A DNA stretch of 32,000 nt, taken from Gemmata obscuriglobus (GTDB taxonomy: Bacteria; Planctomycetota; Planctomycetia; Gemmatales; Gemmataceae). How positions within the stretch are numbered: the first letter of the stretch is position 1; each line of letters opens with the position of its first letter. Below are positions 9,932 through 23,094 of the stretch, piece by piece. Position numbers and translations under genes: made by a program. The notes beneath the pieces were generated by a model that saw only the letters and a list, made by a program, of their open reading frames with translations, ran no database searches and had not been told where the DNA came from. The DNA lies in contig NZ_CP042911.1 of NCBI RefSeq assembly GCF_008065095.1, positions 5,190,001-5,222,000 of the forward strand. The letters run 5' to 3'.

Positions 9932-9945
9932 CAGCGCCCTCTGTT

Positions 9946-10036: not shown

Positions 10037-10124
10037 TCGCCTTGCTCGGGACTGAATCGGCCGCGCCCCGTCAGCAGAGCCGCCAAATGAGGCAAGCGAC
10101 ACCGCCGGTCAACGTTACGCCGGG

Positions 10125-10535: not shown

Positions 10536-10558
10536 GAGCACCTCCGGGTGCCTTTGGT

Positions 10559-10649
10559 GCCGAACAATAAGCTCACCTGCACCGCCATCTCCGGATGAGC
10601 AATGCGTCCCGAATCAGATGGCGGTGTCAGGTGCAGCGCCGGGTTCGGC
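10559..10649 (-). other. attC: attC recombination site (type A)
   Basis: 91 bp; canonical boxes. Its right arm is also part of the extra hairpin 10630..10670. Confidence 0.85.
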
Positions 10650-11072: not shown

Positions 11073-11090
11073 CGCTGCGCCCCCTCTGTG

Positions 11091-11181
11091 GCCGAACATA
11101 AAGCTCACCTGCACCGCCATCACCGGATGAGCGATGCGTCCCGAATCAGACGGCGGTGTCAGGTGCAGCGCCGGGTTCGGC
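11091..11181 (-). other. attC: attC recombination site (type A)
   Basis: 91 bp; canonical type A boxes. Confidence 0.85.
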
Positions 11182-11430
11182 TTGCTCGGCAACCCGCGCC
11201 CTGCATTCGGCGAGCGCCCGGAGCGTGGACTCCCTGGCGAACTCGTTGAAGGACTCCACGCCCAGCCCCCAGTTCTCCAGCGCGACCAAGTTGTCAGGGC
11301 GGGTCAGTCGCTCCCAGACAGCGTGGACCGCCGGGTTCTGCGACTCCCACGGCAGGCACATGAACTCCCGCAACAGCAGGCGGTCGAGGTCGCACCACAA
11401 GGGCAAGAGCGGATTCGCCGACCTACCCAT
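11146..11430 (-). CDS. small hypothetical cassette protein
   Basis: Track ORF 11146..11478 trimmed to ATG 11430 (GGAG 7 nt upstream). 94 aa. The stop is in the attC loop. Confidence 0.5.
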   Translation of the reverse strand: MGRSANPLLPLWCDLDRLLLREFMCLPWESQNPAVHAVWERLTRPDNLVALENWGLGVESFNEFARESTLRALAECRARVAEQAEPGAAPDTAV

Positions 11431-11445
11431 CGGTGCGCTCCGGTG

Positions 11446-11535
11446 GCCGAACGAACAGCTCACCTGCACCGCCACCACCGGATGAGCGATGCGTCCAAAT
11501 CAGCCGGCGGTGTCAGGTGCAGCGCCGGGTTCGGC
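11446..11535 (-). other. attC: attC recombination site (type A)
   Basis: 90 bp; canonical boxes; 32-nt loop. Confidence 0.85.
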
Positions 11536-12060
11536 CGGCTTGTGAGCCTCCCAGGACACCCACATGACAGGTCGAGCGCCGACAGAAGCGAAGTGCAGCT
11601 CCGGGTCGTCGGACTGCACCAGCCCCAGCAGTCGCCGGCCATACAGCCGATGCACCCAAGAGGCGTTGGCGATCACGTCCAGCACGTCCCACGCCCGCAC
11701 ACCCGGCCGTCGGGCGAACTGATCGAACCGCCACAGCACCAACGCCACGCCGCCCGCCTCCGGGATGTCGATGTCACCGAGACAGTCGTTGAGTGCGTTC
11801 AGGTTGCGGCCGTAGTAGCCGGGGAACTCCAGCCGGGCGGCGACCTCCCGATGCATGTCGGCCTCGGACGCCCACTCGCCGCAATCGAACGCCGGGCAGC
11901 GGTAGCCGTAGGACTCCAGCGCGGCGACGTGCCGCCGCAACCGCTCGGCAGGACCGTACAGGGCGACCGGGCCGTTCAGCAGCACCTGCCGATCCACCCG
12001 TAGCACATCGTCCGGGTGGACGCAGTGGGGGTTGGCCGGATCAGTTCGGAAGCTGCCCAC
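11500..12060 (-). CDS. barstar-like ribonuclease inhibitor domain protein
   Basis: The C-terminal 186 codons of chimeric track ORF 11500..12525, trimmed to GTG 12060 (GAGGG 8 nt upstream). DMHREVAARLEFPGYYGRNLNALNDCL...VALVLWRFDQF aligns by eye with barstar [27 protein letters not shown]...LVLEWRQFEQ. Confidence 0.75.
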   Translation of the reverse strand: MGSFRTDPANPHCVHPDDVLRVDRQVLLNGPVALYGPAERLRRHVAALESYGYRCPAFDCGEWASEADMHREVAARLEFPGYYGRNLNALNDCLGDIDIPEAGGVALVLWRFDQFARRPGVRAWDVLDVIANASWVHRLYGRRLLGLVQSDDPELHFASVGARPVMWVSWEAHKPAEPGAAPDTAG

Positions 12061-12078
12061 CCGTTTCGCCCTCTGGGT

Positions 12079-12168
12079 GCCGAACAGAAAGCTCACCTGC
12101 ACCGCCAAGATACAGTGAGCACTACAACGGCGGCGGATGGCGGTGTCAGGTGCAGCGCCGGGTTCGGC
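12079..12168 (-). other. attC: attC recombination site (type A, loop subtype 2)
   Basis: 90 bp. Loop AAGATACAGTGAGCACTACAACGGCGG... Confidence 0.85.
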
Positions 12169-12501
12169 TTCTGCGCGGGCCGTTGCGGTTCCGCGGAGCC
12201 CGCGCTCGTACCGCGCATCCGCGGAGCCACCACCGACCCGCACCACCGTGTCGCGGCCCACCGGTGGCCGCCCAACACCGCACCTCGCGGCGATGAGCCG
12301 CGCCGACCACCCACCGGCACCACGCGGAGCACCACCGACCCGCACCACCGTGTCCCCACCCACACCGGGCCACGACCACCCGCACCTCGCGGCGGTGAGC
12401 CGCGCCCACCCCGACCGGCACCACGCGGAGCCCGACGCGCGGGGTTTACCACCGCGGACCACATGCCCACCGCCGCACGCGCGCTCATGCACGCGATGGT
12501 T
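12169..12501 (-). repeat. ORF-less repetitive cassette, R family, 2 units
   Basis: 333 bp; TTCTGCGC-type head; two units; R tail. Confidence 0.75.
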
Positions 12502-12591
12502 GCCGAACGAACAGCTCACCTGCACCGCCCGTCCCGATGAGCGGTGCGTCCCAAGTCAGCCGGCGGTGTCAGGTGCAGCGCCGGGTTCGGC
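12502..12591 (-). other. attC: attC recombination site (type A)
   Basis: 90 bp; canonical boxes. Confidence 0.85.
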
Positions 12592-12599
12592 ATTACCAC

Positions 12600-13046
12600 C
12601 TACGCGGTCGTGGACCAACAGAACGCCACGAACATCTCATCCAACTCTGCTACAGCCGCCACATCGTACCACTCAGCGTACATCCGCAGCCCCGACCGGA
12701 ACCCACTCAGATCGGCGATGTATGGTGGCAGTGGGCTACGGAGCCCGCTGCTGTACTCCGTCACTAATCGGATGCACTCGGCCTCGGTGATCGGCTCGCA
12801 TAGCCCCCCCTCTGCGTATGGCACGAGGTAATCTTCACGTCCCGACCAGTCTTGCGCCTGCAAAGCCTTCACCCAGAATAGCAGGTCGCTGGTAAAGTCC
12901 CGCTTCCACCCGCGGAACACCCAGATGGACTCCTCGCAATCCGGCGTGATGAAGTCACGGCTTGGGAAGTAGGCAACCTCCAGCGGCGGCGAATCGGCGA
13001 CCGCAAGGCCGGGAAACGTGGCGATCAGCTCCTGCCGGGTGAACAC
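12600..13046 (-). CDS. hypothetical cassette protein
   Basis: Track ORF 12600..13118 trimmed to GTG 13046 (GAGG 9 nt upstream). 148 aa with balanced composition. Confidence 0.6.
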   Translation of the reverse strand: MFTRQELIATFPGLAVADSPPLEVAYFPSRDFITPDCEESIWVFRGWKRDFTSDLLFWVKALQAQDWSGREDYLVPYAEGGLCEPITEAECIRLVTEYSSGLRSPLPPYIADLSGFRSGLRMYAEWYDVAAVAELDEMFVAFCWSTTA

Positions 13047-13064
13047 TACCCTGCGCCTCTGGGT

Positions 13065-13155
13065 GCCGAACGAACAGCTCACCTGCACCGCCATCACCGG
13101 ATGAGCGATGCGATCCAAACTACATGGCGGTGTCAGGTGCAGCGCCGGGTTCGGC
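13065..13155 (-). other. attC: attC recombination site (type A)
   Basis: 91 bp; identical to 14675..14765. Confidence 0.85.
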
Positions 13156-13162
13156 GTCTGGG

Positions 13163-13618
13163 CTACCCCCGCCAGACCACCTGCACGCCGGCAAGCTCGA
13201 TGCCGCCTGGCCCGGCGGCGAGTTGCCCGGCCTTGCGGTTAAGCAGGGCCGGCCCGAAGCACTCGCCGAACCCGACCCGCTCCCCGCAGTGCAGGAAGCT
13301 GACGTACGGCCAGCGGTAGAACGACCCCCGCACCTTCTCGGGGGCGTCTCGCCAGCCGAGCAACTGGCCGGGCCGGCCGCACTCCCGTACCCCGGCGTCC
13401 GTCACCTCCCACCACTGGAAGGTGCTGCCGTGGTCGAACTGCCCGCGCTCCAGGTCGCCGTCCGCGACTTGGTAGATGTACAGCGCGTCGAACGCGGCGA
13501 GGTCGGCGACGCGGACCCCGAATGAGTCGGCCACGTAGTCGAGGAAACGCGGCGTGCGGTGCCACGACCAGACGTCGGCCAGTGCCTCAGCGACCGAACG
13601 CGACGGCTGCGGCTCCAT
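13163..13618 (-). CDS. hypothetical cassette protein, 151 aa (copy 1 of 3)
   Basis: Complete track ORF with ATG 10 nt after GAGGG. Protein is identical to 14773..15228 and differs at one residue from 26322..26777. Confidence 0.65.
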   Translation of the reverse strand: MEPQPSRSVAEALADVWSWHRTPRFLDYVADSFGVRVADLAAFDALYIYQVADGDLERGQFDHGSTFQWWEVTDAGVRECGRPGQLLGWRDAPEKVRGSFYRWPYVSFLHCGERVGFGECFGPALLNRKAGQLAAGPGGIELAGVQVVWRG

Positions 13619-13638
13619 CGGTCGAGCGCCCTCGGGTG

Positions 13639-13729
13639 GCCGAACAAATAGCTCACCTGCACCGCCATCATCGGATGAGCGGCGCGTCCCAAATCAGATG
13701 GCGGTGTCAGGTGCAGCGCCGGGTTCGGC
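13639..13729 (-). other. attC: attC recombination site (type A)
   Basis: 91 bp; canonical type A boxes. Confidence 0.85.
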
Positions 13730-14063
13730 TCGCTCACATCCGCGCCGCGCATCCGCGGATGCCCGCCCACCGGTGCGACCGGGCGGAGCACCACCGAACC
13801 ACGGCGCCGTGTCCCGACACATCGGGGGCCACCCACCACCGCCACACGCGGCGATGAGCCGCGCCCGCAACCGATCGGTCTCAGCGGAGCACCACCGACC
13901 CGCACCACCGTGTCCCCATCCGCACCCGGCCACAACCACCGCAAGCTCGCGGCGAAGAGCCGCGCCAGCCCCAACCGGCACCACGCGAAGCCCGACGCGC
14001 GCGGTTCACCACCGCGGACCACACGCACACCGCCGCACGCGCGCCCTCATGCACGCGATGGTT
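13730..14063 (-). repeat. ORF-less repetitive cassette, R family, 2 units
   Basis: 334 bp. The left ~226 bp are identical to R cassette 6179..6515; the right part differs. Confidence 0.75.
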
Positions 14064-14154
14064 GCCGAACATAAAGCTCACCTGCACCGCCAGGATGCAG
14101 GATGCGGTGCGTCACAATATAGCGGGCGGTGTCAGGTGCAGCGCCGGGTTCGGC
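14064..14154 (-). other. attC: attC recombination site (type A)
   Basis: 91 bp; loop AGGATGCAGGATGCGGTGCG. Confidence 0.85.
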
Positions 14155-14189
14155 CTCTGGGCCATCCGCGCCACACAGCTGCCCCGCAC

Positions 14190-14660
14190 TCAGTCCCCAT
14201 CGTCCCACGCCTCGACCATCGCCCGCAAGGACCCAATCAGGTAGGCCGAGTAATTCGGCCCGAGCTCGTTGAACGGCGTCTCCCGGAACGGCATGTGGTA
14301 GATCACCGGATGCTCGCCGTCGGGACTCGTGCGGCTGAAGTCCAGGCAGACGAACCCGTCCTGGTCCGGCTCGACCACCAAGTAGTGTTCGGGCAACTGG
14401 CACCACGTGCGGGCGCGAGTCGTGTCGGACCACACGCAGCCCCCGCCGCCGACGATCTTGCCCTCGTAGACCCCCGACCAGGAGTTATCGACGATGCTAA
14501 ATCCGCCGAACCTAGCCAGAAACGCCCGGTAGCTCGGCGGCATCGGGCGGCCGAACACGCTCTCCAACTCGCGGATGGTGTCCTCGGCCGCCGGCCCGTT
14601 GACGTGCACGTGCGGTTCGAGTTCCCGCATCCGGTCGAGGAGAGCCGCGACCTCATCCAT
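14190..14660 (-). CDS. SMI1/KNR4 (SUKH) family protein
   Basis: 156-aa track ORF. The ATG lies 5 nt after AGAGGG. EDTIRELESVFGRPMPPSYRAFLARFGG is a textbook SMI1/KNR4 N-terminal block. Confidence 0.8.
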   Translation of the reverse strand: MDEVAALLDRMRELEPHVHVNGPAAEDTIRELESVFGRPMPPSYRAFLARFGGFSIVDNSWSGVYEGKIVGGGGCVWSDTTRARTWCQLPEHYLVVEPDQDGFVCLDFSRTSPDGEHPVIYHMPFRETPFNELGPNYSAYLIGSLRAMVEAWDDGD

Positions 14661-14674
14661 CCGCGCCCTCTGTG

Positions 14675-14765
14675 GCCGAACGAACAGCTCACCTGCACCG
14701 CCATCACCGGATGAGCGATGCGATCCAAACTACATGGCGGTGTCAGGTGCAGCGCCGGGTTCGGC
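14675..14765 (-). other. attC: attC recombination site (type A)
   Basis: 91 bp; identical to 13065..13155. Confidence 0.85.
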
Positions 14766-14772
14766 GTCTGGG

Positions 14773-15228
14773 CTACCCCCGCCAGACCACCTGCACGCCG
14801 GCAAGCTCGATGCCGCCTGGCCCGGCGGCGAGTTGCCCGGCCTTGCGGTTAAGCAGGGCCGGCCCGAAGCACTCGCCGAACCCGACCCGCTCCCCGCAGT
14901 GCAGGAAGCTGACGTACGGCCAGCGGTAGAACGACCCCCGCACCTTCTCGGGGGCGTCTCGCCAGCCGAGCAACTGGCCGGGCCGGCCGCACTCCCGTAC
15001 CCCGGCGTCCGTCACCTCCCACCACTGGAAGGTGCTGCCGTGGTCGAACTGCCCGCGCTCCAGGTCGCCGTCCGCGACTTGGTAGATGTACAGCGCGTCG
15101 AACGCGGCGAGGTCGGCGACGCGGACCCCGAATGAGTCGGCCACGTAGTCGAGGAAACGCGGCGTGCGGTGCCACGACCAGACGTCGGCCAGTGCCTCAG
15201 CGACCGAACGCGACGGCTGCGGCTCCAT
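14773..15228 (-). CDS. hypothetical cassette protein, 151 aa (copy 2 of 3)
   Basis: Identical translation to 13163..13618. Confidence 0.65.
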   Translation of the reverse strand: MEPQPSRSVAEALADVWSWHRTPRFLDYVADSFGVRVADLAAFDALYIYQVADGDLERGQFDHGSTFQWWEVTDAGVRECGRPGQLLGWRDAPEKVRGSFYRWPYVSFLHCGERVGFGECFGPALLNRKAGQLAAGPGGIELAGVQVVWRG

Positions 15229-15248
15229 CGGTCGAGCGCCCTCGGGTG

Positions 15249-15339
15249 GCCGAACAAACAGCTCACCTGCACCGCCACCATCGGATGAGCGATGCGTCCC
15301 AGATCAGATGGCGGTGTCAGGTGCAGCGCCGGGTTCGGC
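15249..15339 (-). other. attC: attC recombination site (type A)
   Basis: 91 bp; canonical type A boxes. Confidence 0.85.
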
Positions 15340-15672
15340 TTCTGCGCCCCGCGCCGCGCATCCGCGGAGCCCGCCCACCGACGCGGCCGAGCGGAGCCAC
15401 CACCGACCCGCACCACCGTGCCGCGGCACACCGGTGGCCGCCCACCACCGACACCCGCGGCGATGAGCCGCGCCCGGCACCCACGGGCACCACGCGGAGC
15501 ACCACCGCCACGAACCGCCGTGTCCCCCCCCGCCACCGGCCACGCCCACCGCAAGCTCGCGGCGACGAGCCGCGCCGGTCGCACTCGGGCACCACGCGGA
15601 GCCCGATACTCGCCGTTTACCACCGCGGACCACACGCACACCACCGCACGCGCCATCGAGCGGCCTCGGGGT
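15340..15672 (-). repeat. ORF-less repetitive cassette, R family, 2 units
   Basis: 333 bp; TTCTGCGC-type head; two units; R tail. Confidence 0.75.
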
Positions 15673-15763
15673 GCCGAACATAAAGCTCACCTGCACCGCC
15701 ATCATACCGTCAGCAACGCGTCACAAATCAGCGGGCGGTGTCAGGTGCAGCGCCGGGTTCGGC
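15673..15763 (-). other. attC: attC recombination site (type A)
   Basis: 91 bp; loop ATCATACCGTCAGCAACGCG. Confidence 0.85.
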
Positions 15764-15780
15764 ATCTGCGCAGCCCCCAG

Positions 15781-16212
15781 CTACCCGCCGTTGACCTCGG
15801 CCGCCACGACCCGACCATCCGGGCCGAAGTGAACGTACAGGAAGGCGTCGTCGAAGCCGTATGGGCCGAGGCCGCTCCAGCATCCCAGCCAGTACACCCA
15901 CGTCTCCGGGTGGTCCAGTCGAACGCCGTACCCGTCCACCGGCCCCCGCGGGTCACGCGACGGTGGCTCGCCCTCGCCCAGCAGTTCCCGCACACGCTCT
16001 TTGGGCGTCCCAGCGGGCAGGTGGCGGATGGCGTCACGGGCCATCGGCCCCCGCCCCCGCTCGTCGGCGGCCGCCCACGCCGCCGGGCTGAATGGGCGGT
16101 CGTCGAACGGGTCGAGATACCGGTCGAGCGCGACGAACCCGGCCACGCACCCGCGGGCCAACAGCAACGCGGCCAGGGCGAGCAAGCCGACGACACACTT
16201 CCACCGCCGCAT
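15781..16212 (-). CDS. small exported or membrane-anchored protein (hypothetical)
   Basis: Track ORF 15781..16419 trimmed to ATG 16212 (AGAGG 9 nt upstream). N-terminal MRRWKCVVGLLALAALLLARGCVAG looks like a signal peptide or anchor. Confidence 0.55.
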   Translation of the reverse strand: MRRWKCVVGLLALAALLLARGCVAGFVALDRYLDPFDDRPFSPAAWAAADERGRGPMARDAIRHLPAGTPKERVRELLGEGEPPSRDPRGPVDGYGVRLDHPETWVYWLGCWSGLGPYGFDDAFLYVHFGPDGRVVAAEVNGG

Positions 16213-16229
16213 CTCGCACTGCCTCTGTT

Positions 16230-16320
16230 GCCGAACATAAAGCTCACCTGCACCGCCATCACCCGATGAGCGATGCGTCACAACTCCGCGGGCGGTGTCA
16301 GGTGCAGCGCCGGGTTCGGC
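16230..16320 (-). other. attC: attC recombination site (type A)
   Basis: 91 bp. Differs from attC 3758..3848 only by 2 nt in the left 8-nt spacer (loop identical). Confidence 0.85.
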
Positions 16321-16366
16321 TTCTGCGACCCCCGCGCCGTGCATTTGCGGGGCGGGGCCAGCCGGC

Positions 16367-16621
16367 CTACAAGGATGGACGCGGCGGGTCGGGCCAGTTG
16401 GCCTCAGACTCGCACTCACGCTGGTACTCCCGCCACGACCGCAACCCTTGGGCCCGCCGCTTGGCGTTGCCCTTGCGCCGCCGCCGCTCCTCGCACCGCT
16501 TGGTGAACTCGTCGTGCCAGCGGTACTCGTACATCACGTTCGCCGACCGGACGTACTTGCGGAACCTCCGCAGGGCCGACGTGAGCGACTCGCCCTCGCA
16601 GACCTCCACTCGGACACCCAT
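16367..16621 (-). CDS. ribosomal protein bS21-like protein (copy 2)
   Basis: 84-aa track ORF identical to 3895..4149. Confidence 0.65.
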   Translation of the reverse strand: MGVRVEVCEGESLTSALRRFRKYVRSANVMYEYRWHDEFTKRCEERRRRKGNAKRRAQGLRSWREYQRECESEANWPDPPRPSL

Positions 16622-16673
16622 CGCTATGCGGCTTGTACGGCTGCCGCGACGCCGGTTGAAAGAGCTTTCTGGG

Positions 16674-16763
16674 GCCGAATGTGGAGCTCACCTGCTCGCG
16701 CGCCCTGGAGGGGGCGATCCCCGAGTTCTGCATGCGCGAGTCTGGTGCAGCGGAGGGTTCGGC
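16674..16763 (-). other. attC: attC recombination site, divergent type B (copy 2)
   Basis: 90 bp. GCCGAAT-N8-CACCTGCTCGCGC...GCGCGAGTCTGGTG-N9-GTTCGGC. Confidence 0.6.
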
Positions 16764-16820
16764 CCCGCGCCCCACCACGCCGAACATGGGCTGCCCGTGA
16801 AGGTGAGCTCCACATTCGGC
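16674..16820. repeat. 147-bp nested palindrome: type B attC plus a second, inverted copy of its left arm
   Basis: GCCGAATGTGGAGCTCACC (16674..16692) pairs perfectly with GGTGAGCTCCACATTCGGC (16802..16820). An inner GTTCGGC(16757..16763)/GCCGAAC(16779..16785) pair is also present. Confidence 0.7.
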
Positions 16821-16959
16821 CCCGCTCATGCAGCCCGGCAGATGAGCTACACCGATCCGCTCGCGCCTCGGGGGTGGGCGCGGGTCGGGCCAGCCACTTG
16901 GGATGGGGGGCTGGCTACCCTATCGACATCGCGCCCACCCCCGTGGGTCTCGGCGCGGG
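16764..16959 (-). other. short ORF-less cassette, type B content (copy 2), dominated by a long hairpin
   Basis: Duplicate of 353..548. The 13-bp perfect-arm hairpin is at 16870..16942. Confidence 0.6.
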
Positions 16960-17050
16960 GCCGAACATAAAGCTCACCTGCACCGCCCCCTCCCAGGGAG
17001 CGATGCGTCACAAACTCGCGGGCGGTGTCAGGTGCAGCGCCGGGTTCGGC
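16960..17050 (-). other. attC: attC recombination site (type A)
   Basis: 91 bp; loop CCCTCCCAGGGAGCGATGCG. Confidence 0.85.
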
Positions 17051-17403
17051 TCGCTCCGCACCGCGGTTCCTGGCCACGGGCCGAGCGTCGCGCATCCGCG
17101 GAGCCCGTGCCACCGGTGCGGGCGTGCGGAGCACCACCGACTCGACGCACCGTGTCGCGGCCCACCGGAGGCCACCCACCACCGCACCTCGCGGCGATGA
17201 GCCGCGCCAGGCACCCACGGGCACCACGCGGAGCACCACCGACTCGAACCGCCGTGTCCCCACGCGCCCCCGGCCACGCCCACCCGCACTTCGCGGCGAC
17301 GAGCCGCGCCAACCACCGACCGGCACCACGCGGAGCCACCACCGTCTGATGCCCCGCGGACCACACGCCCACCGCCGCCCGCGCGCTCCAGAACGCCCGG
17401 GTG
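17051..17403 (-). repeat. ORF-less repetitive cassette, R family, 2 units
   Basis: 353 bp; R head, two units, R tail. Confidence 0.75.
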
Positions 17404-17493
17404 GCCGAACATAAAGCTCACCTGCACCGCCCGTCCCGAGGAGCGATGCGTCACAAGTCAGCCGGCGGTGTCAGGTGCAGCGCCGGGTTCGGC
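17404..17493 (-). other. attC: attC recombination site (type A)
   Basis: 90 bp; canonical boxes. Confidence 0.85.
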
Positions 17494-17954
17494 TCGCTCA
17501 CATCCGCGGTTCGGGGGCACACGCCGAGCACCGCGGCTCCGTGGATGCCCGCGGCACCGGTGCGGCCCTGCGGAGCATCACCGACTCCGCGCCCCGTGTC
17601 CCGGCCCACCGAGGGCCACCCACCACCGACACCTCGCGGCGGTGAGCCGCGCCCGCCACCAACGGCGCCACGCGGAGCACCACCGACACGACCCGCCGTG
17701 TCCCGGCACACCGGAGGCCACGCCCACCACCGCACCTCGCGGCGATGAGCCGCGCCGACCACCCACGGGCCACACGCGGAGCACCACCGACCCGCACCGC
17801 CGTGTCCCGACACATCGGAGGCCACGCCCAACCGCAAGCTCGCGGCGATGAGTCGCGCCAGACCCGACCGGCACCACGCGAAGCCCGACGCGCGCGGTTC
17901 ACCACCGCGGACCACACGCACACCGCCGCACGCGCGCTCCTGCACGCGATGGTT
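17494..17954 (-). repeat. ORF-less repetitive cassette, R family, 3 units
   Basis: 461 bp. Three tandem ~102-105-nt units start near 17570, 17672 and 17776. Confidence 0.75.
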
Positions 17955-18044
17955 GCCGAACGAACAGCTCACCTGCACCGCCAGGATGGAGTGAGCGACA
18001 CAACGGCGGCTGATGGCGGTGTCAGGTGCAGCGCCGGGTTCGGC
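17955..18044 (-). other. attC: attC recombination site (type A, loop subtype 2)
   Basis: 90 bp; loop AGGATGGAGTGAGCGACACAACGGCGG. Confidence 0.85.
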
Positions 18045-18404
18045 TCGCTCGCCTCCGCGGTTCCGGGCGACACGCCGAGCTTGGCGCATCCGCGGAACCC
18101 GCGGCACCGGTGCGGCCGAGCGGAGCCCCACCGACTCGAATCGCCGTGTCGCGGCCCACCGGTGGCCACCCATCACCGCACCTCGCGGCGACGAGCCGCG
18201 CCCGCCCTGACGCGCGCCACGCGGAGCACCACCGACCCGAACCGCCGTGTCCCCACCCGCACCCCGGCCACGCCCAACCACACCTCGCGGCGACGAGCCG
18301 CGCCCGCCCCGACCGGCACCACGCGGAGCCACCACCGACGCGTGGGCGTCACCTTCGCGGACCACACGCCCACCACCGCACGCGCGATCCAGAACGCGAA
18401 GGTG
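18045..18404 (-). repeat. ORF-less repetitive cassette, R family, 2 units
   Basis: 360 bp; R head, two units, R tail. Confidence 0.75.
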
Positions 18405-18495
18405 GCCGAACATAAAGCTCACCTGCACCGCCATCACCCGATGAGCGGTGCGTCCCAACTCAGCCGGCGGTGTCAGGTGCAGCGCCGGGTTCGGC
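18405..18495 (-). other. attC: attC recombination site (type A)
   Basis: 91 bp; canonical type A boxes. Confidence 0.85.
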
Positions 18496-18498
18496 GCC

Positions 18499-18978
18499 TC
18501 AGCGCCAACGCCCGCGAGGCCACACGCCCCAGACGGTGGCCGGCCCGGAACGCGGCGGCCGTGCCTCCGCCCATGTGGACAGGCGGAGCGGCAGATACGC
18601 CCCGCCCGCCTCGAAGCTGGTCCCGGACGCGAACTCGACCCGGTACCGCGCCCCGTCCCGCGCGGCGAACCGCAACTCCGGGTGCCACGTCTCGTGCTCC
18701 CCGCCGACCCACAGCCCGAACCACGACTGGCCGGAGTCGGGGTAGCGCGCCTCGGGCATGACCAGCCGGACCCCGGTGTAGTCGACAGCCAGGACCTGTG
18801 GGACTGGGGCACCCTCCGCGACCAAGGCCACCCCGTACGGGAAGACTGCCGCGTCGGCTTCGTTGGTGCAATGGGCGTAGAAGTGGAAGTCCCACCCACC
18901 GCCCGCCACCGGCGCGAACCACGCGATGAGGACGCGGAAGTCGGTCGGGCCAAGCTGCAACTCGCCGCATACCTCCAC
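18499..18978 (-). CDS. hypothetical cassette protein
   Basis: 159-aa track ORF with a GTG start 19 nt after the attC. Aromatic-rich, non-repetitive composition. It stops 3 nt before the attC. Confidence 0.55.
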   Translation of the reverse strand: MEVCGELQLGPTDFRVLIAWFAPVAGGGWDFHFYAHCTNEADAAVFPYGVALVAEGAPVPQVLAVDYTGVRLVMPEARYPDSGQSWFGLWVGGEHETWHPELRFAARDGARYRVEFASGTSFEAGGAYLPLRLSTWAEARPPRSGPATVWGVWPRGRWR

Positions 18979-18997
18979 GCCGCGCGGCCCCCTGGTT

Positions 18998-19088
18998 GCC
19001 GAACTAAAAGCTCACCTGCACCGCCATCATCGGATGAGCAGTGCGTTCCAGATCAGCCGGCGGTGTCAGGTGCAGCGCCGGGTTCGGC
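18998..19088 (-). other. attC: attC recombination site (type A)
   Basis: 91 bp; canonical type A boxes. Confidence 0.85.
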
Positions 19089-19425
19089 TTCTGCGCCCAC
19101 CGTCGCGGTTCCGCGGAGCCCGCGCCCGCGCCGCGCATCCGCGGAGCCACCACCGACCCGCACCACCGTGCCGCGGCACACCGGTGGCCGCCCACCACCG
19201 ACACCCGCGGCGGTGAGCCGCGCCCGCCAACCACGGGCACCACGCGGAGCACCACCGACCCGCACCACCGTGTCCCCACCCACACCGGGCCACGACCACC
19301 CGCACCTCGCGGCGGCGAGCCGCGCCAACCACCAGCAGGCCACACGCGGAGCCCGACACCCGGGGTTCACCCACGCGGACCACACGCCCACTACCGCCGC
19401 ACGCGCGCTCCTGCACGCGATGGTT
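19089..19425 (-). repeat. ORF-less repetitive cassette, R family, 2 units
   Basis: 337 bp; TTCTGCGC-type head; two units; R tail. Confidence 0.75.
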
Positions 19426-19516
19426 GCCGAACGAACAGCTCACCTGCACCGCCACCATCGGATGAGCGGCGCGTCCCGAATCAGCCGGCGGTGTCAGGTG
19501 CAGCGCCGGGTTCGGC
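19426..19516 (-). other. attC: attC recombination site (type A)
   Basis: 91 bp; canonical type A boxes. Confidence 0.85.
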
Positions 19517-19939
19517 CTCTGGCGGCTTGAAAGCAGCCAAACACCGCTCGTATTCGGCGCGGCTGAAGCGGTACGGTCCCCACCCCGGATTCCACCGAAT
19601 GATCGCGCTCAAGCCACCGTTCGGGGACACGTCAAAACCAAGCTTCTCCCAGCGAACGACGTCCGGCTCTGACACGACTTCGGCCATCACCACGCTACAG
19701 CTCAGATCCAGGTCGTCCGGGCAGATGAGTACTGGTGCGTACCCAGTGCAGCCGACCGCCGGCAAGATGCGTTCCCACGGTATGGCCGCGTCTGGTTCGT
19801 GGTGGAACCACCCGAGCAGCGACGACACCTGTCCTTCGACGCCCAGCGCCACGTCGAGGGGAACACCGTCCACCGCAATCACCAAATGCGGTTCCGGGAC
19901 GAACTTGCTCGGCGCGCGGATCGCCTCGATGCGGTTCAC
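19481..19939 (-). CDS. hypothetical cassette protein
   Basis: 152-aa track ORF with a GTG start 10 nt after GAGG. The stop is in the attC loop. Confidence 0.6.
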   Translation of the reverse strand: MNRIEAIRAPSKFVPEPHLVIAVDGVPLDVALGVEGQVSSLLGWFHHEPDAAIPWERILPAVGCTGYAPVLICPDDLDLSCSVVMAEVVSEPDVVRWEKLGFDVSPNGGLSAIIRWNPGWGPYRFSRAEYERCLAAFKPPEAEPGAAPDTAG

Positions 19940-19958
19940 AGACTCGAGACCTCGGGTT

Positions 19959-20049
19959 GCCGAACGAACAGCTCACCTGCACCGCCATCACCGGACGAGC
20001 GGTGCGTCCCGAATCAGATGGCGGTGTCAGGTGCAGCGCCGGGTTCGGC
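19959..20049 (-). other. attC: attC recombination site (type A)
   Basis: 91 bp; canonical type A boxes. Confidence 0.85.
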
Positions 20050-20559
20050 ATCGTTGAGCATCAGGGCTTCCGCCTCTTCGTCGGTCAGCGGTCGCACCTC
20101 GGCCACCCGCAGGAACGCGCTCAGCGAGGGGGCGACTGGGGTGATGTCATCCGGTTGCAACTGCTCGCCGTCGTGGTACAGCCGGACTAACGGCGGGTCG
20201 TCGCCGCCGGCCTGAATGTAGTACGGATCAGCCCCGGAACTGCCGTCGAGGGCCACCAGCAGGTAGCCGGCGGCCAGCGCGTTCTCGGTGAGTAGGAACT
20301 TGAGCCGTCCCACCGCCTCAGCTGGCGTCGGCCAGACAAGCCACCACGGCCCCTCCCACGGCTTGAACGCATCCGACCGCCAGCCCAACCGGAGCCCGCA
20401 AAGCGGGAGGGACTGCCACAGCTCGGTCAGCCAAGCCGGGTATCGGTCGCCGAACGCCACCTGGAGGGCGGCGATCTCCTCTGCCGTCGCCGGACGCCCA
20501 ACCTGACCGGCCGCCGTAGCTCGTGCGACGAAGTCCTCGGCCGCTTGCCGTACAGCCAT
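20014..20559 (-). CDS. SMI1/KNR4 (SUKH)-like protein
   Basis: Track ORF 20014..20712 trimmed to ATG 20559. EEIAALQVAFGDRYPAWLTELWQS and YLLVALDGSSGADPYYIQ fit the SUKH pattern. The stop is in the attC loop. Confidence 0.6.
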   Translation of the reverse strand: MAVRQAAEDFVARATAAGQVGRPATAEEIAALQVAFGDRYPAWLTELWQSLPLCGLRLGWRSDAFKPWEGPWWLVWPTPAEAVGRLKFLLTENALAAGYLLVALDGSSGADPYYIQAGGDDPPLVRLYHDGEQLQPDDITPVAPSLSAFLRVAEVRPLTDEEAEALMLNDAEPGAAPDTAI

Positions 20560-20577
20560 CTGTCGGGTCCTTCCGCC

Positions 20578-20668
20578 GCCGAACGAACAGCTCACCTGCA
20601 CCGCGAGGTCCCGGGCCGCGATGCGTTCCGAATCAGCGGGCGGTGTCAGGTGCAGCGCCGGGTTCGGC
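20578..20668 (-). other. attC: attC recombination site (type A)
   Basis: 91 bp; arm variant CACCTGCACCGCG. Confidence 0.8.
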
Positions 20669-20674
20669 CCTGAG

Positions 20675-20989
20675 CTACAGCGGGACGTACACCACCTCGA
20701 ACTCTGGGCCAAGTTCTGAGCGAACGACCGCGAGCACCTCGGCCGCCGCTCTCTCGAACCGCTCCCGCTCCTCGGCTGACCACGGCGACGAGCCCGGCGG
20801 ATACTCCCAATCGAGCGCCCCGTCGTGCCACGCGGTCAACTCCACGAGCCGCTGGCGGATGCCTGGGGACAACGGAAGCTGCTCCTCGATCGGGCCGACA
20901 TCGAACACTGCGCGGGTCACATCGTTGACGCACCACAAGCACCCGCCGCCCCACTCGAACATCAGCCGCACGACGAACCGTGTGGTCAC
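20675..20989 (-). CDS. small hypothetical cassette protein
   Basis: 104-aa track ORF with a GTG start 6 nt after GGAGGG. Confidence 0.55.
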   Translation of the reverse strand: MTTRFVVRLMFEWGGGCLWCVNDVTRAVFDVGPIEEQLPLSPGIRQRLVELTAWHDGALDWEYPPGSSPWSAEERERFERAAAEVLAVVRSELGPEFEVVYVPL

Positions 20990-21014
20990 TAACGGCCCTC
21001 CGCGCCCTTCTGGT

Positions 21015-21106
21015 GCCGAACAAATAGCTCACCTGCACCGCCATCACACGATGGGCGGTGCGTCCCCGAATCAGCCGGCGGTGTCAGGTGCAGCACCGGG
21101 TTCGGC
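21015..21106 (-). other. attC: attC recombination site (type A)
   Basis: 92 bp; spacer variant CAGCACCGG. Confidence 0.85.
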
Positions 21107-21115
21107 GTGCCTTTG

Positions 21116-21529
21116 CTACTCCGCCCGGAAGCGGCCGACGACTTCCTCGACACGACTCTCCCAGGAAGCCGGCACCTCAAGCCGGACACACACGCCGCTG
21201 TACCCGTCGTCGCGCTGGACTTCGCATCGTGCCTTGCACCGGCCGTGCCAGGAGAAGCCGGCCCACGTGTCCGAGTTGATCCGTTCGGTGAGCGCGAGGA
21301 TCATGCTCAGCCTCTGCCAGTAGAACTCGTCGAGCCGACCGCCCGCGTCCACACGGACTGTGCCCGCGGCTTGGTGCCCGCTCGGATTCGAACGGTGGCT
21401 ACCGATCAGCGAAACAACAGCCTCCAGGAACTCCCGGAACCGCCATTCGGGAATCCAACACTCGATGACTATCGCAACTCCCTTCCGCTCTCCGCCGCCG
21501 AACGAACAGCTCACCTGCACCGCCATCAC
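21116..21529 (-). CDS. hypothetical cassette protein; only in-frame start codons lie inside the upstream attC
   Basis: Track ORF as given. Within the cassette proper (from 21496 down) the protein-like frame GGGERKGVAIVIECWIPEWRFREF... has no ATG/GTG/TTG for more than 45 codons. The in-frame ATG GCG GTG CAG GTG lies in attC 21497..21587. Confidence 0.45.
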   Translation of the reverse strand: MMAVQVSCSFGGGERKGVAIVIECWIPEWRFREFLEAVVSLIGSHRSNPSGHQAAGTVRVDAGGRLDEFYWQRLSMILALTERINSDTWAGFSWHGRCKARCEVQRDDGYSGVCVRLEVPASWESRVEEVVGRFRAE

Positions 21530-21587
21530 ACGATGAGCGATGCGTCCCAGTCTAGCGGGCGGTGTCAGGTGCAGCGCCGGGTTCGGC
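21497..21587 (-). other. attC: attC recombination site (type A)
   Basis: 91 bp; canonical type A boxes. Confidence 0.85.
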
Positions 21588-21595
21588 GTCTGCGG

Positions 21596-21985
21596 CTACC
21601 CCAGCGGCCAACGATACTCGGGGCTGACGCGGATGCACAGCCCCAGCCCGCGGAACATCTCGGACAGCCGCCGCACCTCTAGCGCCTGCACCCCGCGGGC
21701 GACCGGCGACCCGGCGTCCAGCAGTTCGCGGGCGGCCTTGACCCCGATGCACAGGGCGTTGCCGACCGCCGCGATGATCCGCCCCCGGTCGTGCCCGGCC
21801 CACTCCACCCACACGTCGTAGGGCGTGTGATCGAACGTCGGCCGGTTGTGGTTGGTCGTAACCGCCCCGACCCAATCGCAGACTGTGCAGCGGATGCCGG
21901 TGACGGTGTCGTCGGGGGCGAACCCGCCGAGCCGCCCGCCGCACGCAGGGCACCGCGGCTCCGTGTTGTCGGGGGCTTCCGCCAT
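21596..21985 (-). CDS. zinc-ribbon protein with ribosomal L7/L12 C-terminal-like domain
   Basis: Track ORF 21596..22054 trimmed to ATG 21985 (AGAGG 7 nt upstream). Has a CPACGG...CTVC pair. YDVWVEWAGHDRGRIIAAVGNALCIGVKAARELLDAG aligns by eye with the L7/L12 CTD [37 protein letters not shown]. Confidence 0.5.
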   Translation of the reverse strand: MAEAPDNTEPRCPACGGRLGGFAPDDTVTGIRCTVCDWVGAVTTNHNRPTFDHTPYDVWVEWAGHDRGRIIAAVGNALCIGVKAARELLDAGSPVARGVQALEVRRLSEMFRGLGLCIRVSPEYRWPLG

Positions 21986-22002
21986 CGGTGCGCCTCTTGC
22001 CT

Positions 22003-22093
22003 GCCGAACAAATAGCTCACCTGCACCGCCATCACCGGATGAGCGGTGCGTCACAGATCAGCCGGCGGTGTCAGGTGCAGCGCCGGGTTCGGC
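22003..22093 (-). other. attC: attC recombination site (type A)
   Basis: 91 bp; canonical type A boxes. Confidence 0.85.
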
Positions 22094-22345
22094 TCGCGGA
22101 CCACCGCGGTTCCGGGCACACGCTCCGCACCGCAGCTCCGCGGAGCCCGCGCCCCGGTGCGGCCCTGCGGAGCACCACCGACCCGCATCACCGTGCCGCC
22201 GCACACCGGAGGCCACGCCCAACCGCACCTCGCGGCGATGAGCCGCGCCACACACCGGCGGGCACCACGCGGAGCCCGACACCGGAGTTCACCCACGCGG
22301 ACCACACACGCGCGCGCCGCACGCGCACTCATGCACGCTTGGGTG
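22094..22345 (-). repeat. ORF-less repetitive cassette, R family, 1 unit
   Basis: 252 bp; head, a single unit, tail. Confidence 0.75.
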
Positions 22346-22436
22346 GCCGAACATAAAGCTCACCTGCACCGCCATCACCGGATGAGCGATGCGTCACAAG
22401 GCCGATGGCGGTGTCAGGTGCAGCGCCGGGTTCGGC
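22346..22436 (-). other. attC: attC recombination site (type A)
   Basis: 91 bp; canonical type A boxes. Confidence 0.85.
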
Positions 22437-22987
22437 ACTTGGTTCCGAGCGCTGCGCACCGCGTTCGAGCTTCCTTGATTGGCCTTTAACGCCAGCCATT
22501 GTTGTGCGTGGCTGGGCTCGGGGCCGAGGAAAGTATCCAGCAGTCGATCACCGCGGACGAGCACGAAACACGCCCGGCCGTCGGTACTTGTGACCCGCCG
22601 CACCTCATCCCCGGATCGGCGGCCGGTCAGGAGCGACTTCCAGAAGTAGTCGTAAGGCATCAACCCGAGCGACGCAAACTGTGCCGTGAGCGCGTCGAGC
22701 TCTTTTTCCGGCACGACCTCGCCCCAAGCTTCGGGCGGTACCACGCACGGGCGCTGCCACGGCGATTCAAACGAGCGGCACAGGGCGGTATCGCAAGCGG
22801 AACACCGGCCCCGCCACGCCGAGTGAAACTCGCTGTGGAACCAACAATCGACCTGAATCACCTCACCGCCACAGATCGGGCACAATTCACCGGGCTTCTT
22901 CGGTGGCGGCGGACCGAGACCGTACCGCACGGGCAGCGCCACCGGTGGCGCGGGACGCTTCGATCGGAGCCAGCCGAACAGCCTCAT
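22394..22987 (-). CDS. hypothetical protein with N-terminal Cys-rich (zinc-ribbon-like) region
   Basis: 197-aa track ORF with ATG 6 nt after GAGGG. Has CPICGG...CSAC. It is the only ORF that reads through the attC in the PNPALHLTPP frame, stopping in the loop. Confidence 0.55.
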   Translation of the reverse strand: MRLFGWLRSKRPAPPVALPVRYGLGPPPPKKPGELCPICGGEVIQVDCWFHSEFHSAWRGRCSACDTALCRSFESPWQRPCVVPPEAWGEVVPEKELDALTAQFASLGLMPYDYFWKSLLTGRRSGDEVRRVTSTDGRACFVLVRGDRLLDTFLGPEPSHAQQWLALKANQGSSNAVRSARNQVPNPALHLTPPSAL

Positions 22988-23003
22988 CCCGTGCCCTCGG
23001 GTG

Positions 23004-23094
23004 GCCGAACGAACAGCTCACCTGCACCGCCATCACACGATGAGCGGTGCGTCACAATACAGCGGGCGGTGTCAGGTGCAGCGCCGGGTTCGGC
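23004..23094 (-). other. attC: attC recombination site (type A)
   Basis: 91 bp; canonical type A boxes. Confidence 0.85.

What the first reader, a model, noticed from the sequence alone, without database searches (positions are those of the whole stretch)
16674..16959. Short ORF-less hairpin cassette with a double-armed divergent attC (type B), present twice
The 16674..16959 block is duplicated at 263..548 with 1 mismatch seen. It has two parts. The first is a divergent attC (16674..16763) with type A box geometry but different arms. The second is 196 bp of cargo with no credible ORF. Two structures stand out. The left arm of the attC (GCCGAATGTGGAGCTCACC) has a second, perfectly complementary partner 39 nt beyond the site (16802..16820). 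The attC is therefore nested in a 147-bp palindrome, and the R'/L' arm can pair either with the bulged proximal arm or with a bulge-free distal arm. The cargo also contains a 73-nt hairpin with perfect 13-bp arms GGGGGTGGGCGCG/CGCGCCCACCCCC enclosing a 7-bp stem (16870..16942). Alternative pairing of an attC arm could switch the site between a recombinogenic and a sequestered fold. That idea is speculation.
Basis: seen in the sequence. Interest (0 to 1): 0.7.

Follow-up and report, generated by a model that had tools for sequence, protein, structure and literature searches.

The report
Self-folding gene-less integron cassette family
This 286-bp stretch is a mobile integron cassette with no gene, one of a conserved family in Gemmata-like bacteria; its recombination-site arm has a normal bulged pairing partner and a second, perfect one, which suggests a built-in DNA switch on cassette recombination that has not been described before.

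Summary
The window is a large Gemmata obscuriglobus integron array with about 61 attC sites. The finding is one discrete cassette, 16680..16965, identical to 269..554. The single mismatch lies outside the cassette.

The cassette is not a one-off. Two diverged paralogs lie in the window (23458..23755 and 29455..29736). At least 16 distinct homologs, 55-98% identical, occur in other Gemmataceae genomes and in metagenomes.

All members lack a conserved ORF and share these features:
- a canonical bulged attC;
- a bulge-free distal arm that co-varies with the cleaved arm;
- flanks of both right arms that pair with the far end of the cassette, so each helix runs across the recombination junction and is continuous only in the excised circle;
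- a third partial complement of the cleaved arm;
- a conserved 73-nt hairpin.

G·T pairs mark the attC bottom strand as the strand that folds. In the modelled single-stranded circle the distal fold beats the canonical fold by 4.5-19 kcal/mol.

My best reading is a cis-acting single-stranded DNA device that clamps or locks the attC site. That function is inferred, not tested. It is a new variant of a known kind.

The parts
16680..16965 (-). The cassette as a mobile unit, 286 bp. The cassette sense (top) strand is the - strand, and the + strand is the attC bottom strand. The boundaries are the IntI crossover points GCCGAA|T (16679/16680) and GCCGAA|C (16965/16966).
   Evidence: It is 100% identical to 269..554, and identity stops exactly at both crossover points while both neighbours differ. 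Near-identical cassettes L034/L050 and L006/L049 have the same boundaries in different contexts.
16674..16703 (+). Arm a, the cleaved left arm on the bottom strand. It comprises R' GCCGAA|T, the spacer GTGGA and L' GCTCACCTGCTCGCGCG. It is the hub that pairs with b, d or d2.
16674..16763 (+). Proximal, canonical attC ('type B', 90 nt), formed by arm a with arm b. It has an unpaired central spacer, extrahelical bases T16741 and C16748 six bp apart, and a T16680·G16757 wobble at the crossover base.
   Evidence: L-box pairs are 97.9% paired with 2 co-varying columns.
16735..16771 (+). Arm b (CGCGAG-T-CTGGTG-C-AGC, spacer GGAGG, GTTCGGC) plus its flank x_b, CCCGCGCC (16764..16771). The flank pairs with x' at the other end of the cassette.
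   Evidence: I4 is a 15-nt, 100% complementary pair, 16757-16771 with 16952-16966. The flank runs 6-9 bp in 15 of 16 family members (one has 1), against 0-1 bp in most (52 of 57) ordinary cassettes. Co-variation is shown.
16779..16785 (+). An extra GCCGAAC core in the linker. With arm d it could form a 42-nt mini-hairpin.
   Evidence: It is present only in this cassette and is not conserved in any homolog. It is treated as incidental.
16801..16825 (+). Arm d, the distal and bulge-free complement of arm a (AGGTGAGCT CCACA TTCGGC), plus its flank x_d, CCCGC. The whole is complementary to the circular junction x'+GCCGAA|a.
   Evidence: and I1 and I2. The helix is 95.1% paired with 10 co-varying columns.
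16837..16848 (+). Arm d2 (GGCAGATGAGCT), a third complement of the L' box of arm a. It has no spacer or R box.
   Evidence: It matches 11-16 of 16 positions in nearly all members and tracks the member's own arm a rather than the neighbour's attC.
16866..16946 (+). Cargo hairpin. It has 13-bp perfect outer arms (16870-82 with 16930-42), an inner 7-bp stem, a conserved apical motif CACTTGGGATGGGGGG, and G·T pairs that are invariant across the family.
   Evidence: and I3.
16952..16965 (+). x' (GGCGCGGG) plus GCCGAA. This is the cassette end that becomes contiguous with arm a after circularisation. It pairs with the flank of b or of d.
   Evidence: and I2 and I4.
269..554 (-). Second, identical copy of the cassette.
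29455..29736 (-). Diverged paralog, about 63% identical, with the same architecture. Its a:d helix is about 29 bp with two G·T pairs.
23458..23755 (-). A more divergent paralog, whose subfamily is also found in Gemmata algarum (L030). It has a proximal attC, a distal arm with 2 mismatches, a 12-bp flank pairing, and a hairpin with the same apical motif.

Best explanation
This is a member of a conserved family of gene-less integron cassettes in Gemmataceae. I read the 'cargo' as DNA structure rather than a gene.

Shown directly:
- It is a discrete cassette delimited by IntI crossover points.
- Its bottom strand is the most self-complementary cassette strand in the array.
- The cleaved arm of its attC (a) has a canonical partner (b, with unpaired spacer and extrahelical bases), a perfect partner (d), and a partial partner (d2).
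- The sequences just beyond b and d pair with the opposite end of the cassette (x').
- All of these pairings are kept by compensatory substitutions, and G·T pairs fall on the bottom strand.

Inferred: the structure acts in cis on single-stranded bottom-strand DNA, above all in the excised circle. That is the only form in which x' and arm a are contiguous. In the circle the x' pairing clamps the base of the attC hairpin. Arm a then partitions between a recombinogenic fold (a:b) and a fully paired fold (a:d) that lacks the spacer bubble and the extrahelical bases.

The a:d fold is predicted to be a poor or unselective IntI substrate. The cassette would therefore carry its own lock or clamp that sets how readily its site is recombined, and that compacts the single-stranded intermediate.
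For: - Cassette identity and mobility. The exact 286-bp duplicate has different neighbours. The same cassette occurs inside arrays, as the first cassette next to attI and intI (L049, TIGR02249 463.6 bits), and as a solitary copy between convergent genes (L034).
- Canonical attC geometry and strand assignment, judged against the definition in PMC5027507.
- Junction-spanning complementarity of 25-36 bp in every complete member.
- Co-variation of the distal fold: 92.9% of cells paired against 39-46% when partners are slid, 22 pairs with double changes, and 0 of 500 shuffles reaching the observed score. The metagenome members were found through the cargo hairpin only, so their arms are an independent test.
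- Co-variation of the proximal fold and of b-flank with x'. The b-flank:x' pairing has no role in the array-form attC and only extends the R stem after circularisation.
- The flank pairing is family-specific: 5-9 bp against 0-1 bp in most (52 of 57) ordinary cassettes.
- Only these four attCs in the window have a distal complement.
- Strand asymmetry: G·T against A·C is 18:5 in a:d and 52:6 in the hairpin, and two G·T pairs are invariant.
- Energetics: a:d beats a:b by 4.5-19 kcal/mol in 16 of 16 modelled circles. The probability of the proximal fold is 1e-6 and 0.01 for the two copies in the array, against a median of 0.67 for 57 type A sites.
- The family cassettes fold best of all 60 cassettes, at -0.33 to -0.37 kcal/mol per nt against a median of -0.24.
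- No conserved ORF, Rfam family, promoter or terminator was found.
- Published work links attC fold probability, EHBs and UCS to recombination (PMC5371416, PMC5027507, PMC2727003, PMC6393395).
Against: - There is no functional data of any kind.
- A lock that disfavours the recombinogenic fold is hard to square with a cassette that is multi-copy and evidently mobile, unless IntI binding or folding kinetics override the thermodynamics.
- In the linear array the distal arm barely suppresses the proximal fold in two paralogs (0.28 and 0.63).
- EHB deletion does not abolish recombination of some short attC sites (PMC5027507), so the a:d fold may not be 'off'.
- Whether excised cassettes exist as single-stranded circles is a model-based inference, not an established fact.
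- The conserved apical loop sequence and the third arm d2 are not explained by this model.
- Energies come from nearest-neighbour DNA parameters for naked DNA, without SSB or IntI.
Confidence: 0.45

Rival explanations
1. It is a structured non-coding RNA carried as cassette cargo and transcribed from the + strand, antisense to the cassette genes. The conserved helices would be RNA helices, and the G·T pairs would be G·U pairs.
For: - Strong co-variation, invariant G·U-type wobbles and a conserved apical loop are typical of functional RNAs.
- Gene-less cassettes elsewhere carry promoters or sRNAs (PMC11014356, PMC6557892).
- The solitary copy L034 sits between convergent genes.
Against: - There is no promoter-like or terminator-like signal on either strand of the 72% G+C cassette, and no Rfam match.
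- The conserved helices use both extreme ends of the cassette and the recombination core itself. A transcript would have to start in whatever cassette lies next door.
- The b-flank:x' pairing only makes sense after circularisation.
- The folding strand is the attC bottom strand, as expected for integron single-stranded DNA.
Confidence: 0.2
2. It is a purely selfish empty cassette whose palindromes have no adaptive role. The arms would stay complementary through mechanistic homogenisation, such as hairpin-templated repair, template switching or gene conversion between repeated arms. The cassette persists only because IntI can move it.
For: - There is no gene, the cassette is multi-copy in arrays, and decayed copies exist (L037/L039 cargo only, L046 with a short a:d hairpin).
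- Arms b, d and d2 and their flanks look like repeated copies of one another. Quasi-palindrome correction is a known mutational process (general knowledge).
Against: - Complementarity is kept across 55% sequence identity in four separate helices, including the cargo hairpin, which is unrelated to the attC arms.
- Wobbles are strand-biased and two are invariant, which argues for selection on a folded strand.
- The unpaired loop sequence is conserved even in the divergent subfamily.
Confidence: 0.15
3. It is a transcriptional insulator or terminator cassette. Long G+C-rich hairpins would stop or pause read-through transcription in the array, or between convergent genes.
For: - The hairpins are very stable.
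- The four copies are spaced through the array.
- L049 has the cassette immediately downstream of a co-oriented intI, and L034 lies between convergent genes.
Against: - There is no U/T tract after any stem.
- The wobble pattern favours the + strand, which is antisense to the cassette genes, so sense-strand RNA would carry A·C mismatches at conserved positions.
- This rival does not explain why the arms must match the attC arm and the cassette ends.
Confidence: 0.1
4. It is two fused or decayed cassettes. Arm d with the GCCGAAC at 16779 would be the remnant of a second, miniature attC, so the 'double arm' would be an accident of cassette fusion. Alternatively the cassette encodes a small protein.
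For: - A 42-nt GCCGAAC...ATTCGGC hairpin exists at 16779..16820.
- ORFs of 41-57 aa can be drawn.
Against: - The inner GCCGAAC is absent from all homologs, while arm d is present in all of them.
- Arm d lacks the extra bases that a real R''/L'' arm carries, and it matches arm a through the spacer.
- ORF positions are not conserved, 135 of 159 alignment gaps are not multiples of 3, and there are no Pfam hits.
Confidence: 0.04

Closest known systems
Canonical attC sites and gene cassettes of sedentary chromosomal integrons (for example V. cholerae VCRs; attC definition in PMC5027507 and PMC2727003)
   Same: - R''/R' inverse-core and core pair.
- L boxes and a 5-6 nt unpaired central spacer.
- Two extrahelical bases 6 bp apart on the arm opposite the AAC triplet.
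- A position inside a large array, with discrete cassette boundaries at the crossover point.
   Different: - A second, fully paired partner arm and a third partial one.
- An R-box stem extended by 5-9 bp across the cassette junction.
- No ORF.
- The crossover base is T instead of C in 5 of 16 members.
- None of these features is seen in the 57 ordinary attCs of the same array.
Gene-less (ORF-less) integron cassettes with promoter activity (Vibrionaceae, PMC11014356; oral Treponema, PMC6557892)
   Same: Short cassettes without a gene that persist in arrays and are thought to act through their DNA or RNA rather than through a protein.
   Different: - Those cassettes are defined by promoter activity and are A+T-rich enough to hold promoters.
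- No conserved structure or extra attC arm is reported in PMC11014356: a text search found no mention of hairpin, palindrome or secondary structure.
- Here no promoter-like site is found, and the whole cassette is under structural constraint.
attC conformational heterogeneity and 'pfold' control of cassette excision (straight versus kinked hairpins, PMC6393395; pfold, PMC5371416)
   Same: The idea that the fraction of molecules in the recombinogenic fold sets recombination frequency, and that competing folds of the same strand lower it.
   Different: - Known cases are alternative folds within one attC hairpin that differ by less than 1 kJ/mol up to a few kcal/mol.
- Here the competitor is a dedicated, conserved, co-varying arm outside the attC, worth about 5-19 kcal/mol.
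- There is also a junction-spanning clamp.
Single-stranded-DNA hairpin elements: ends of IS200/IS605 and their non-autonomous PATE derivatives, and single-strand origins of rolling-circle plasmids (recalled from general knowledge, not tested)
   Same: Function resides in hairpins of one specific DNA strand. They have single-stranded circular intermediates and conserved loops on otherwise co-varying stems.
   Different: - No HUH transposase or Rep is associated with this family.
- The boundaries coincide with IntI crossover points, not with IS ends or target tetranucleotides.
- This is a resemblance only.

Membership tests
Integron gene cassette with attC site | Imperfect palindrome with R''(RYYYAAC)/R'(GTTRRRY) cores at its ends | tested here: met
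   On the + strand the site runs GCCGAAT...GGTTCGGC (16674..16763). One core deviates: it is GCCGAAT, that is ATTCGGC on the top strand, with A or T at the crossover base. Eleven of 16 homologs have the canonical C.
Integron gene cassette with attC site | Unpaired central spacer, and extrahelical bases on the arm opposite the AAC triplet with a 6-bp stem between first and last EHB (PMC5027507) | tested here: met
   The proximal fold has a 5-nt spacer bubble, and T16741 and C16748 are separated by CTGGTG. The first EHB is C rather than the usual G, as in all type A sites of this array.
Integron gene cassette with attC site | Lies in a cassette array associated with an integron integrase | tested here: met
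   About 61 attC sites lie in 30 kb of the window. intI is not in the window. A homolog (L049) is the first cassette beside attI and an intI that scores above the TIGR02249 cut-off.
Integron gene cassette with attC site | Moves as a discrete unit bounded at the crossover point (between A and C of AAC on the bottom strand) | tested here: met
   The identical 286-bp copies have different neighbours, and identity ends at GCCGAA| on both sides. The same holds for L034/L050 and L006/L049.
Integron gene cassette with attC site | Recombined by IntI as a folded bottom strand | not testable with these tools
   This needs recombination assays. The strand asymmetry of G·T pairs is consistent with it.
Gene-less promoter cassette | Promoter activity on the sense or antisense strand | tested here: inconclusive
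   No sigma-70-like site is found on either strand of 16500..17150. Planctomycete promoters are poorly defined, and PMC11014356 reports that such promoters cannot be predicted in silico.
Known structured RNA family (Rfam 15) | Match to a curated covariance model | tested here: not met
   There are 0 hits at gathering score in the window. Only chance-level hits (E at least 0.5) appear in 16600..17100.
Intrinsic terminator | G+C-rich hairpin followed by a T/U tract | tested here: not met
   No terminator-like site is found, and no T run follows any stem.
Protein-coding cassette or small protein | ORF conserved in position and frame among homologs | tested here: not met
   ORFs differ in position between members. 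Gap lengths modulo 3 are 96, 39 and 24 for remainders 1, 2 and 0. There are no Pfam hits.
Fused double cassette (two attC sites) | A second complete attC with its own R''/R' pair, conserved in relatives | tested here: not met
   The inner GCCGAAC (16779..16785) is unique to this cassette. Arm d has no bulged partner of its own.

The most novel reading that the evidence does not exclude
The family is a non-coding, selfish 'rod-like' mobile element that lives on the integron machinery. Natural selection acts on the excised single-stranded bottom-strand circle. The junction-spanning helices would then be an evolutionary footprint of that intermediate. The three competing partners of the cleaved arm would form a built-in on/off (or clamp/lock) switch for an attC site. 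That would be a cis-encoded layer of control over integron recombination that has not been described.
Probability: 0.3. Interest if true: 0.85.

Novelty: new variant of a known kind. Interest (0 to 1): 0.68.

Why it matters
Integron biology holds that attC sites work as folded single strands and that the probability of reaching the right fold tunes cassette mobility. So far that tuning has been attributed to the attC hairpin itself and to replication orientation.

Here a whole cassette appears to be devoted to it. There is a dedicated competitor arm, and there is a clamp that only closes once the cassette is circular. Both are preserved by compensatory evolution across species.

If confirmed, this would give three things:
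- a natural, mutable system to test how attC folding controls excision and integration;
- indirect evolutionary evidence about the physical form of the excised cassette, which is still uncertain;
- a second documented role for gene-less cassettes besides promoters.

It also shows that integron annotation tools that call one attC per cassette can miss functionally relevant extra arms.

Tried and rejected
- Rfam search of the whole window and a permissive search of the locus gave nothing.
- The sigma-70 promoter and intrinsic terminator scan gave nothing.
- Pfam searches on the long ORFs overlapping the locus gave nothing. Those ORFs are high-G+C artefacts with flat codon-position G+C.
- No small ORF is conserved across 16 homologs.
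- The 'mini-attC or fused cassettes' idea, based on GCCGAAC at 16779, was rejected because that core is not conserved.
- I asked whether extended R-stem pairing is a general property of cassettes in this array. It is not.
- I asked whether other attCs have distal complements. They do not.
- The genome-collection scan did not return G. obscuriglobus itself, probably because the region is masked. The organism was identified instead by exact protein look-up.
- A literature search found no description of the Gemmata integron cassettes or of double-armed attC sites.
- A search for terminal inverted repeats of the IS near 30.5-31.5 kb found none at the threshold used.
- Consensus folding of the 101-nt tandem repeat units gave only weak structure on either strand.
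- Circular + and - strand MFEs under DNA parameters differ only modestly: + is more stable in 11 of 16. Strand assignment therefore rests on wobble counts and EHB geometry, not on energies.

Full report
**Context**

The window is about 70% G+C. Positions 1..30247 are a continuous integron cassette array. I count 61 attC sites, 57 of one 90-92 bp type ('type A'), which define 60 cassettes of 282-808 bp. An exact-protein look-up places the window in Gemmata obscuriglobus (CP025958.1, about 2.8 Mb; also ABGO01 contigs).

In type A sites the + strand reads GCCGAAC-5 nt-GCTCACCTGCACCGCC...GGCGGTG(T)CAGGTG(C)AGC-5 nt-GTTCGGC. The two extra bases lie on the arm opposite the AAC triplet and are 6 bp apart. 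By the published definition (PMC5027507) this makes the + strand the recombinogenic bottom strand. Cassette genes are accordingly on the - strand, with G+C at the third codon position of 0.85-0.92 in the clearly coding cassettes.

**Checking the observation**

- The block is duplicated. Once the crossover point GCCGAA|Y is used as the boundary, the unit is 16680..16965, which equals 269..554 at 100% identity over 286 bp.
- The single mismatch belongs to the neighbouring cassette, and both neighbours differ between the two copies. This is therefore a discrete cassette that has been moved or copied as a unit.
- The proximal attC (16674..16763) has type A geometry but different arm sequences. It has a T·T mismatch, and T instead of C at the crossover base.
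- The distal arm 16802..16820 is an exact reverse complement of 16674..16692. The 19-mer gives 4 hits at 3 or fewer mismatches, against 0.01 expected.
- The 73-nt hairpin 16870..16942 is real.
- The region folds far better than shuffles, with z about -7 on either strand.
- No credible ORF, Pfam domain, Rfam family, promoter or terminator was found.

**It is a family**

A sensitive self-search showed that cassette 29455..29736 aligns to the finding over its full length at about 63% identity. A search for distal complements of every attC left arm in the window returned only four sites: the two copies, 29449 and 23452. All of the non-type-A attCs in the window thus belong to gene-less cassettes with the same architecture.

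One scan of species-representative genomes, using a pattern from the two arms, recovered homologs in Gemmata sp. MAGs, a Gemmataceae MAG, a Planctomycetota MAG and G. algarum. One scan of metagenomes, using a pattern taken only from the cargo hairpin, recovered 21 more loci. After removing duplicates there are 16 complete distinct members, with pairwise identity 0.55-0.98 and median 0.64. There are also further copies, including second copies on two contigs (L022, L035), and decayed copies.

**Anatomy shared by the family**

Written on the + (bottom) strand:
- a: the cleaved arm, GCCGAA|Y-spacer-AGYTCA...
- b: a proximal right arm that gives a canonical attC with spacer bubble and extrahelical base(s).
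- d: a distal right arm that complements a without bulges and through the spacer. This includes a compensated 1-nt spacer indel, and co-variation of the crossover base (C-G in 11 members, T-A in 5).
- x_b and x_d: flanks of 5-9 nt immediately 3' of b and of d. Both pair with x', the last bases of the cassette before the next GCCGAA.
- d2: a third complement of the L' box of a.
- A cargo hairpin of about 70 nt with a conserved apical motif.

Because x' and a sit at opposite ends of the linear cassette, the sequence x'+GCCGAA+a exists as one continuous strand only after circularisation. That junction strand is near-perfectly complementary to d+x_d over 25-36 bp in every complete member. It is also complementary to b+x_b through the R box.

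Ordinary cassettes of the same array show 0-1 bp, rarely 3-5 bp, of pairing beyond the R box.

**Statistics**

For the distal fold plus hairpin (66 pairs, 16 sequences):
- 92.9% of cells form standard pairs, against 39-46% when partners are slid by 1-3 columns.
- 22 pairs show changes on both sides.
- 100 cells show double changes, against 32 in shuffles.
- 0 of 500 shuffles reach the observed co-variation score.

For the proximal L box and b-flank:x', 93.7% of cells are paired against 29-43% when slid, with 6 pairs showing changes on both sides.

One caveat on ascertainment applies. The outer hairpin stem was part of the metagenome search pattern, and short arm motifs were part of the genome search pattern. 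The arms of the metagenome members and the hairpins of the genome members are independent tests.

**Which strand, and which molecule**

Non-Watson-Crick positions in the helices are mostly G·T on the + strand, which would be A·C on the - strand. The counts are 18 against 5 in a:d and 52 against 6 in the hairpin, and two G·T pairs are invariant in 16 of 16 members. The window's + strand is C-rich, so a simple excess of C-to-T changes on that strand is an unlikely explanation.

The folding strand is therefore the attC bottom strand. Published work shows that attC bottom strands fold more stably than top strands (PMC5027507).

An RNA reading (G·U pairs in an antisense transcript) is not excluded, but three points count against it:
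- there are no promoter or terminator signals;
- the conserved helices use both extreme ends of the cassette and the recombination core;
- the b-flank:x' pairing does nothing for the array-form attC, where it would in fact compete with it, and only lengthens the R stem once the cassette is circular.

**Energetics (nearest-neighbour DNA parameters, naked DNA)**

- As single-stranded circles, all 16 members prefer the a:d fold to the canonical a:b fold, by 4.5-19 kcal/mol.
- The minimum-energy circle is a rod or dumbbell with the junction helix continuous.
- In the linear array the probability of the proximal L-box pairing is 1e-6 for 16674 and 0.01 for 263. It is 0.28 for 29449 and 0.63 for 23452. 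The median for 57 type A sites is 0.67. The effect is thus strong and universal only in the circle.
- The family cassettes are the most self-complementary in the array, at -0.33 to -0.37 kcal/mol per nt against a median of -0.24 and an extreme of -0.29.

**Mobility and context**

Near-identical cassettes occur with different neighbours.
- L006 lies inside an array, while L049 is the first cassette, next to an attI region and an integron integrase (TIGR02249, 463.6 bits against a cut-off of 265).
- L050 lies in an array, while L034 (also seen as L041, L044, L048 and L054) is a solitary copy between convergent genes.
- The boundaries are always at GCCGAA|Y, including members with T at the crossover base, so that variant core is evidently usable.

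**Interpretation**

Shown:
- a conserved, mobile, gene-less cassette family;
- mutually exclusive pairings of the cleaved arm, all under compensatory evolution;
- bottom-strand polarity.

Inferred: the element acts in cis as folded single-stranded DNA. The x' pairing clamps the base of the attC hairpin after excision. Published work shows that SSB opens attC hairpins stepwise (PMC5737091, seen only as the title and the opening lines of its abstract in the listing), so a longer G+C-rich R stem should resist that opening.

Arm d competes with arm b for arm a. The a:d duplex lacks the unpaired spacer and the extrahelical bases. In studied sites those features promote efficient, strand-selective recombination (PMC2727003, PMC5027507), and the probability of the recombinogenic fold correlates with excision (PMC5371416, PMC6393395). 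I therefore favour a built-in clamp/lock on the recombination site, at moderate confidence.

The model does not explain three things: why a successful mobile cassette would lock itself, what the conserved hairpin loop recognises, or what d2 does. The rivals are an antisense structured RNA, a selfish element whose palindromes are homogenised mechanically, and a transcriptional insulator.

**Novelty**

Gene-less cassettes and alternative attC folds are both known. I found no description of the following:
- a dedicated, co-varying second or third partner arm;
- R-stem extension across the cassette junction;
- a whole-cassette structural constraint conserved across species.

I class this as a new variant of a known kind.

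Noticed in passing
window 555-901, 1612-2035, 5199-6969, 12085-12507, 13645-14069, 15255-15678, 16966-18410, 19004-19431, 22009-22351, 23010-23457, 24890-25337, 29737-30162: About 17 of the 60 cassettes carry 2-4 tandem copies of a 101-104 nt unit, all in the same orientation. The period is not a multiple of 3, codon-position G+C is flat, and there is no Rfam hit. This looks like a second, larger family of apparently non-coding cassettes. Consensus folding gave only weak structure.
   Followed up: partly
window 30497-31516 (- strand ORF), between the attC at 30157-30247 and the attC starting at 31960: An insertion sequence with a DDE transposase (PF01609 and PF13546) interrupts a cassette. The array continues beyond it. 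Terminal inverted repeats were not found at the threshold tried.
   Followed up: partly
window, many attC/cassette junctions, e.g. 16960-16969, 8924-8941: The spacer of the upstream attC often supplies an ATG that abuts the crossover point (- strand ...GCTTTATG|TTCGGC). Many cassette ORFs therefore begin M-F-G, with the start codon donated by the neighbouring site.
   Followed up: no
window 13071-13644 = 14681-15254; 26229-26803; 3764-4207 vs 16236-16679: Several protein-coding or other cassettes are duplicated within the array at 96-100% identity, with boundaries at the crossover points. This indicates active cassette shuffling or duplication.
   Followed up: partly
L049 2752-4044: In this metagenomic integron the integrase gene is co-oriented with the cassettes and attI lies just 3' of intI. 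This differs from the classical divergent arrangement. The gene-less family cassette is the first cassette.
   Followed up: partly
L046 (reverse strand, about 120-160 of the oriented sequence): A decayed solitary copy has lost arm b and most of the attC. It keeps a 10-bp a:d hairpin in which the R box has changed on both sides (GCCAAA/TTTGGC), and it keeps the cargo hairpin.
   Followed up: no
L037 2501-2638 / L039 4042-4179: A copy of the cargo hairpin region lies next to a degenerate attC arm (GCCGAGC) but has no double-armed attC of its own. It is probably a truncated terminal cassette.
   Followed up: no
window 16870-16915 (+ strand): The 5' half of the cargo hairpin and its loop contain at least five runs of three or more G (GGGGG, GGG, GGG, GGG, GGGGGG). 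A G-quadruplex on the bottom strand could compete with the hairpin. This was not analysed.
   Followed up: no
L001 and L002 gene tables (same array in G. obscuriglobus): Coding cassettes include SUKH/SMI1-KNR4 and Barstar domains, which are immunity-protein types, and a ribosomal protein S21 homolog.
   Followed up: no
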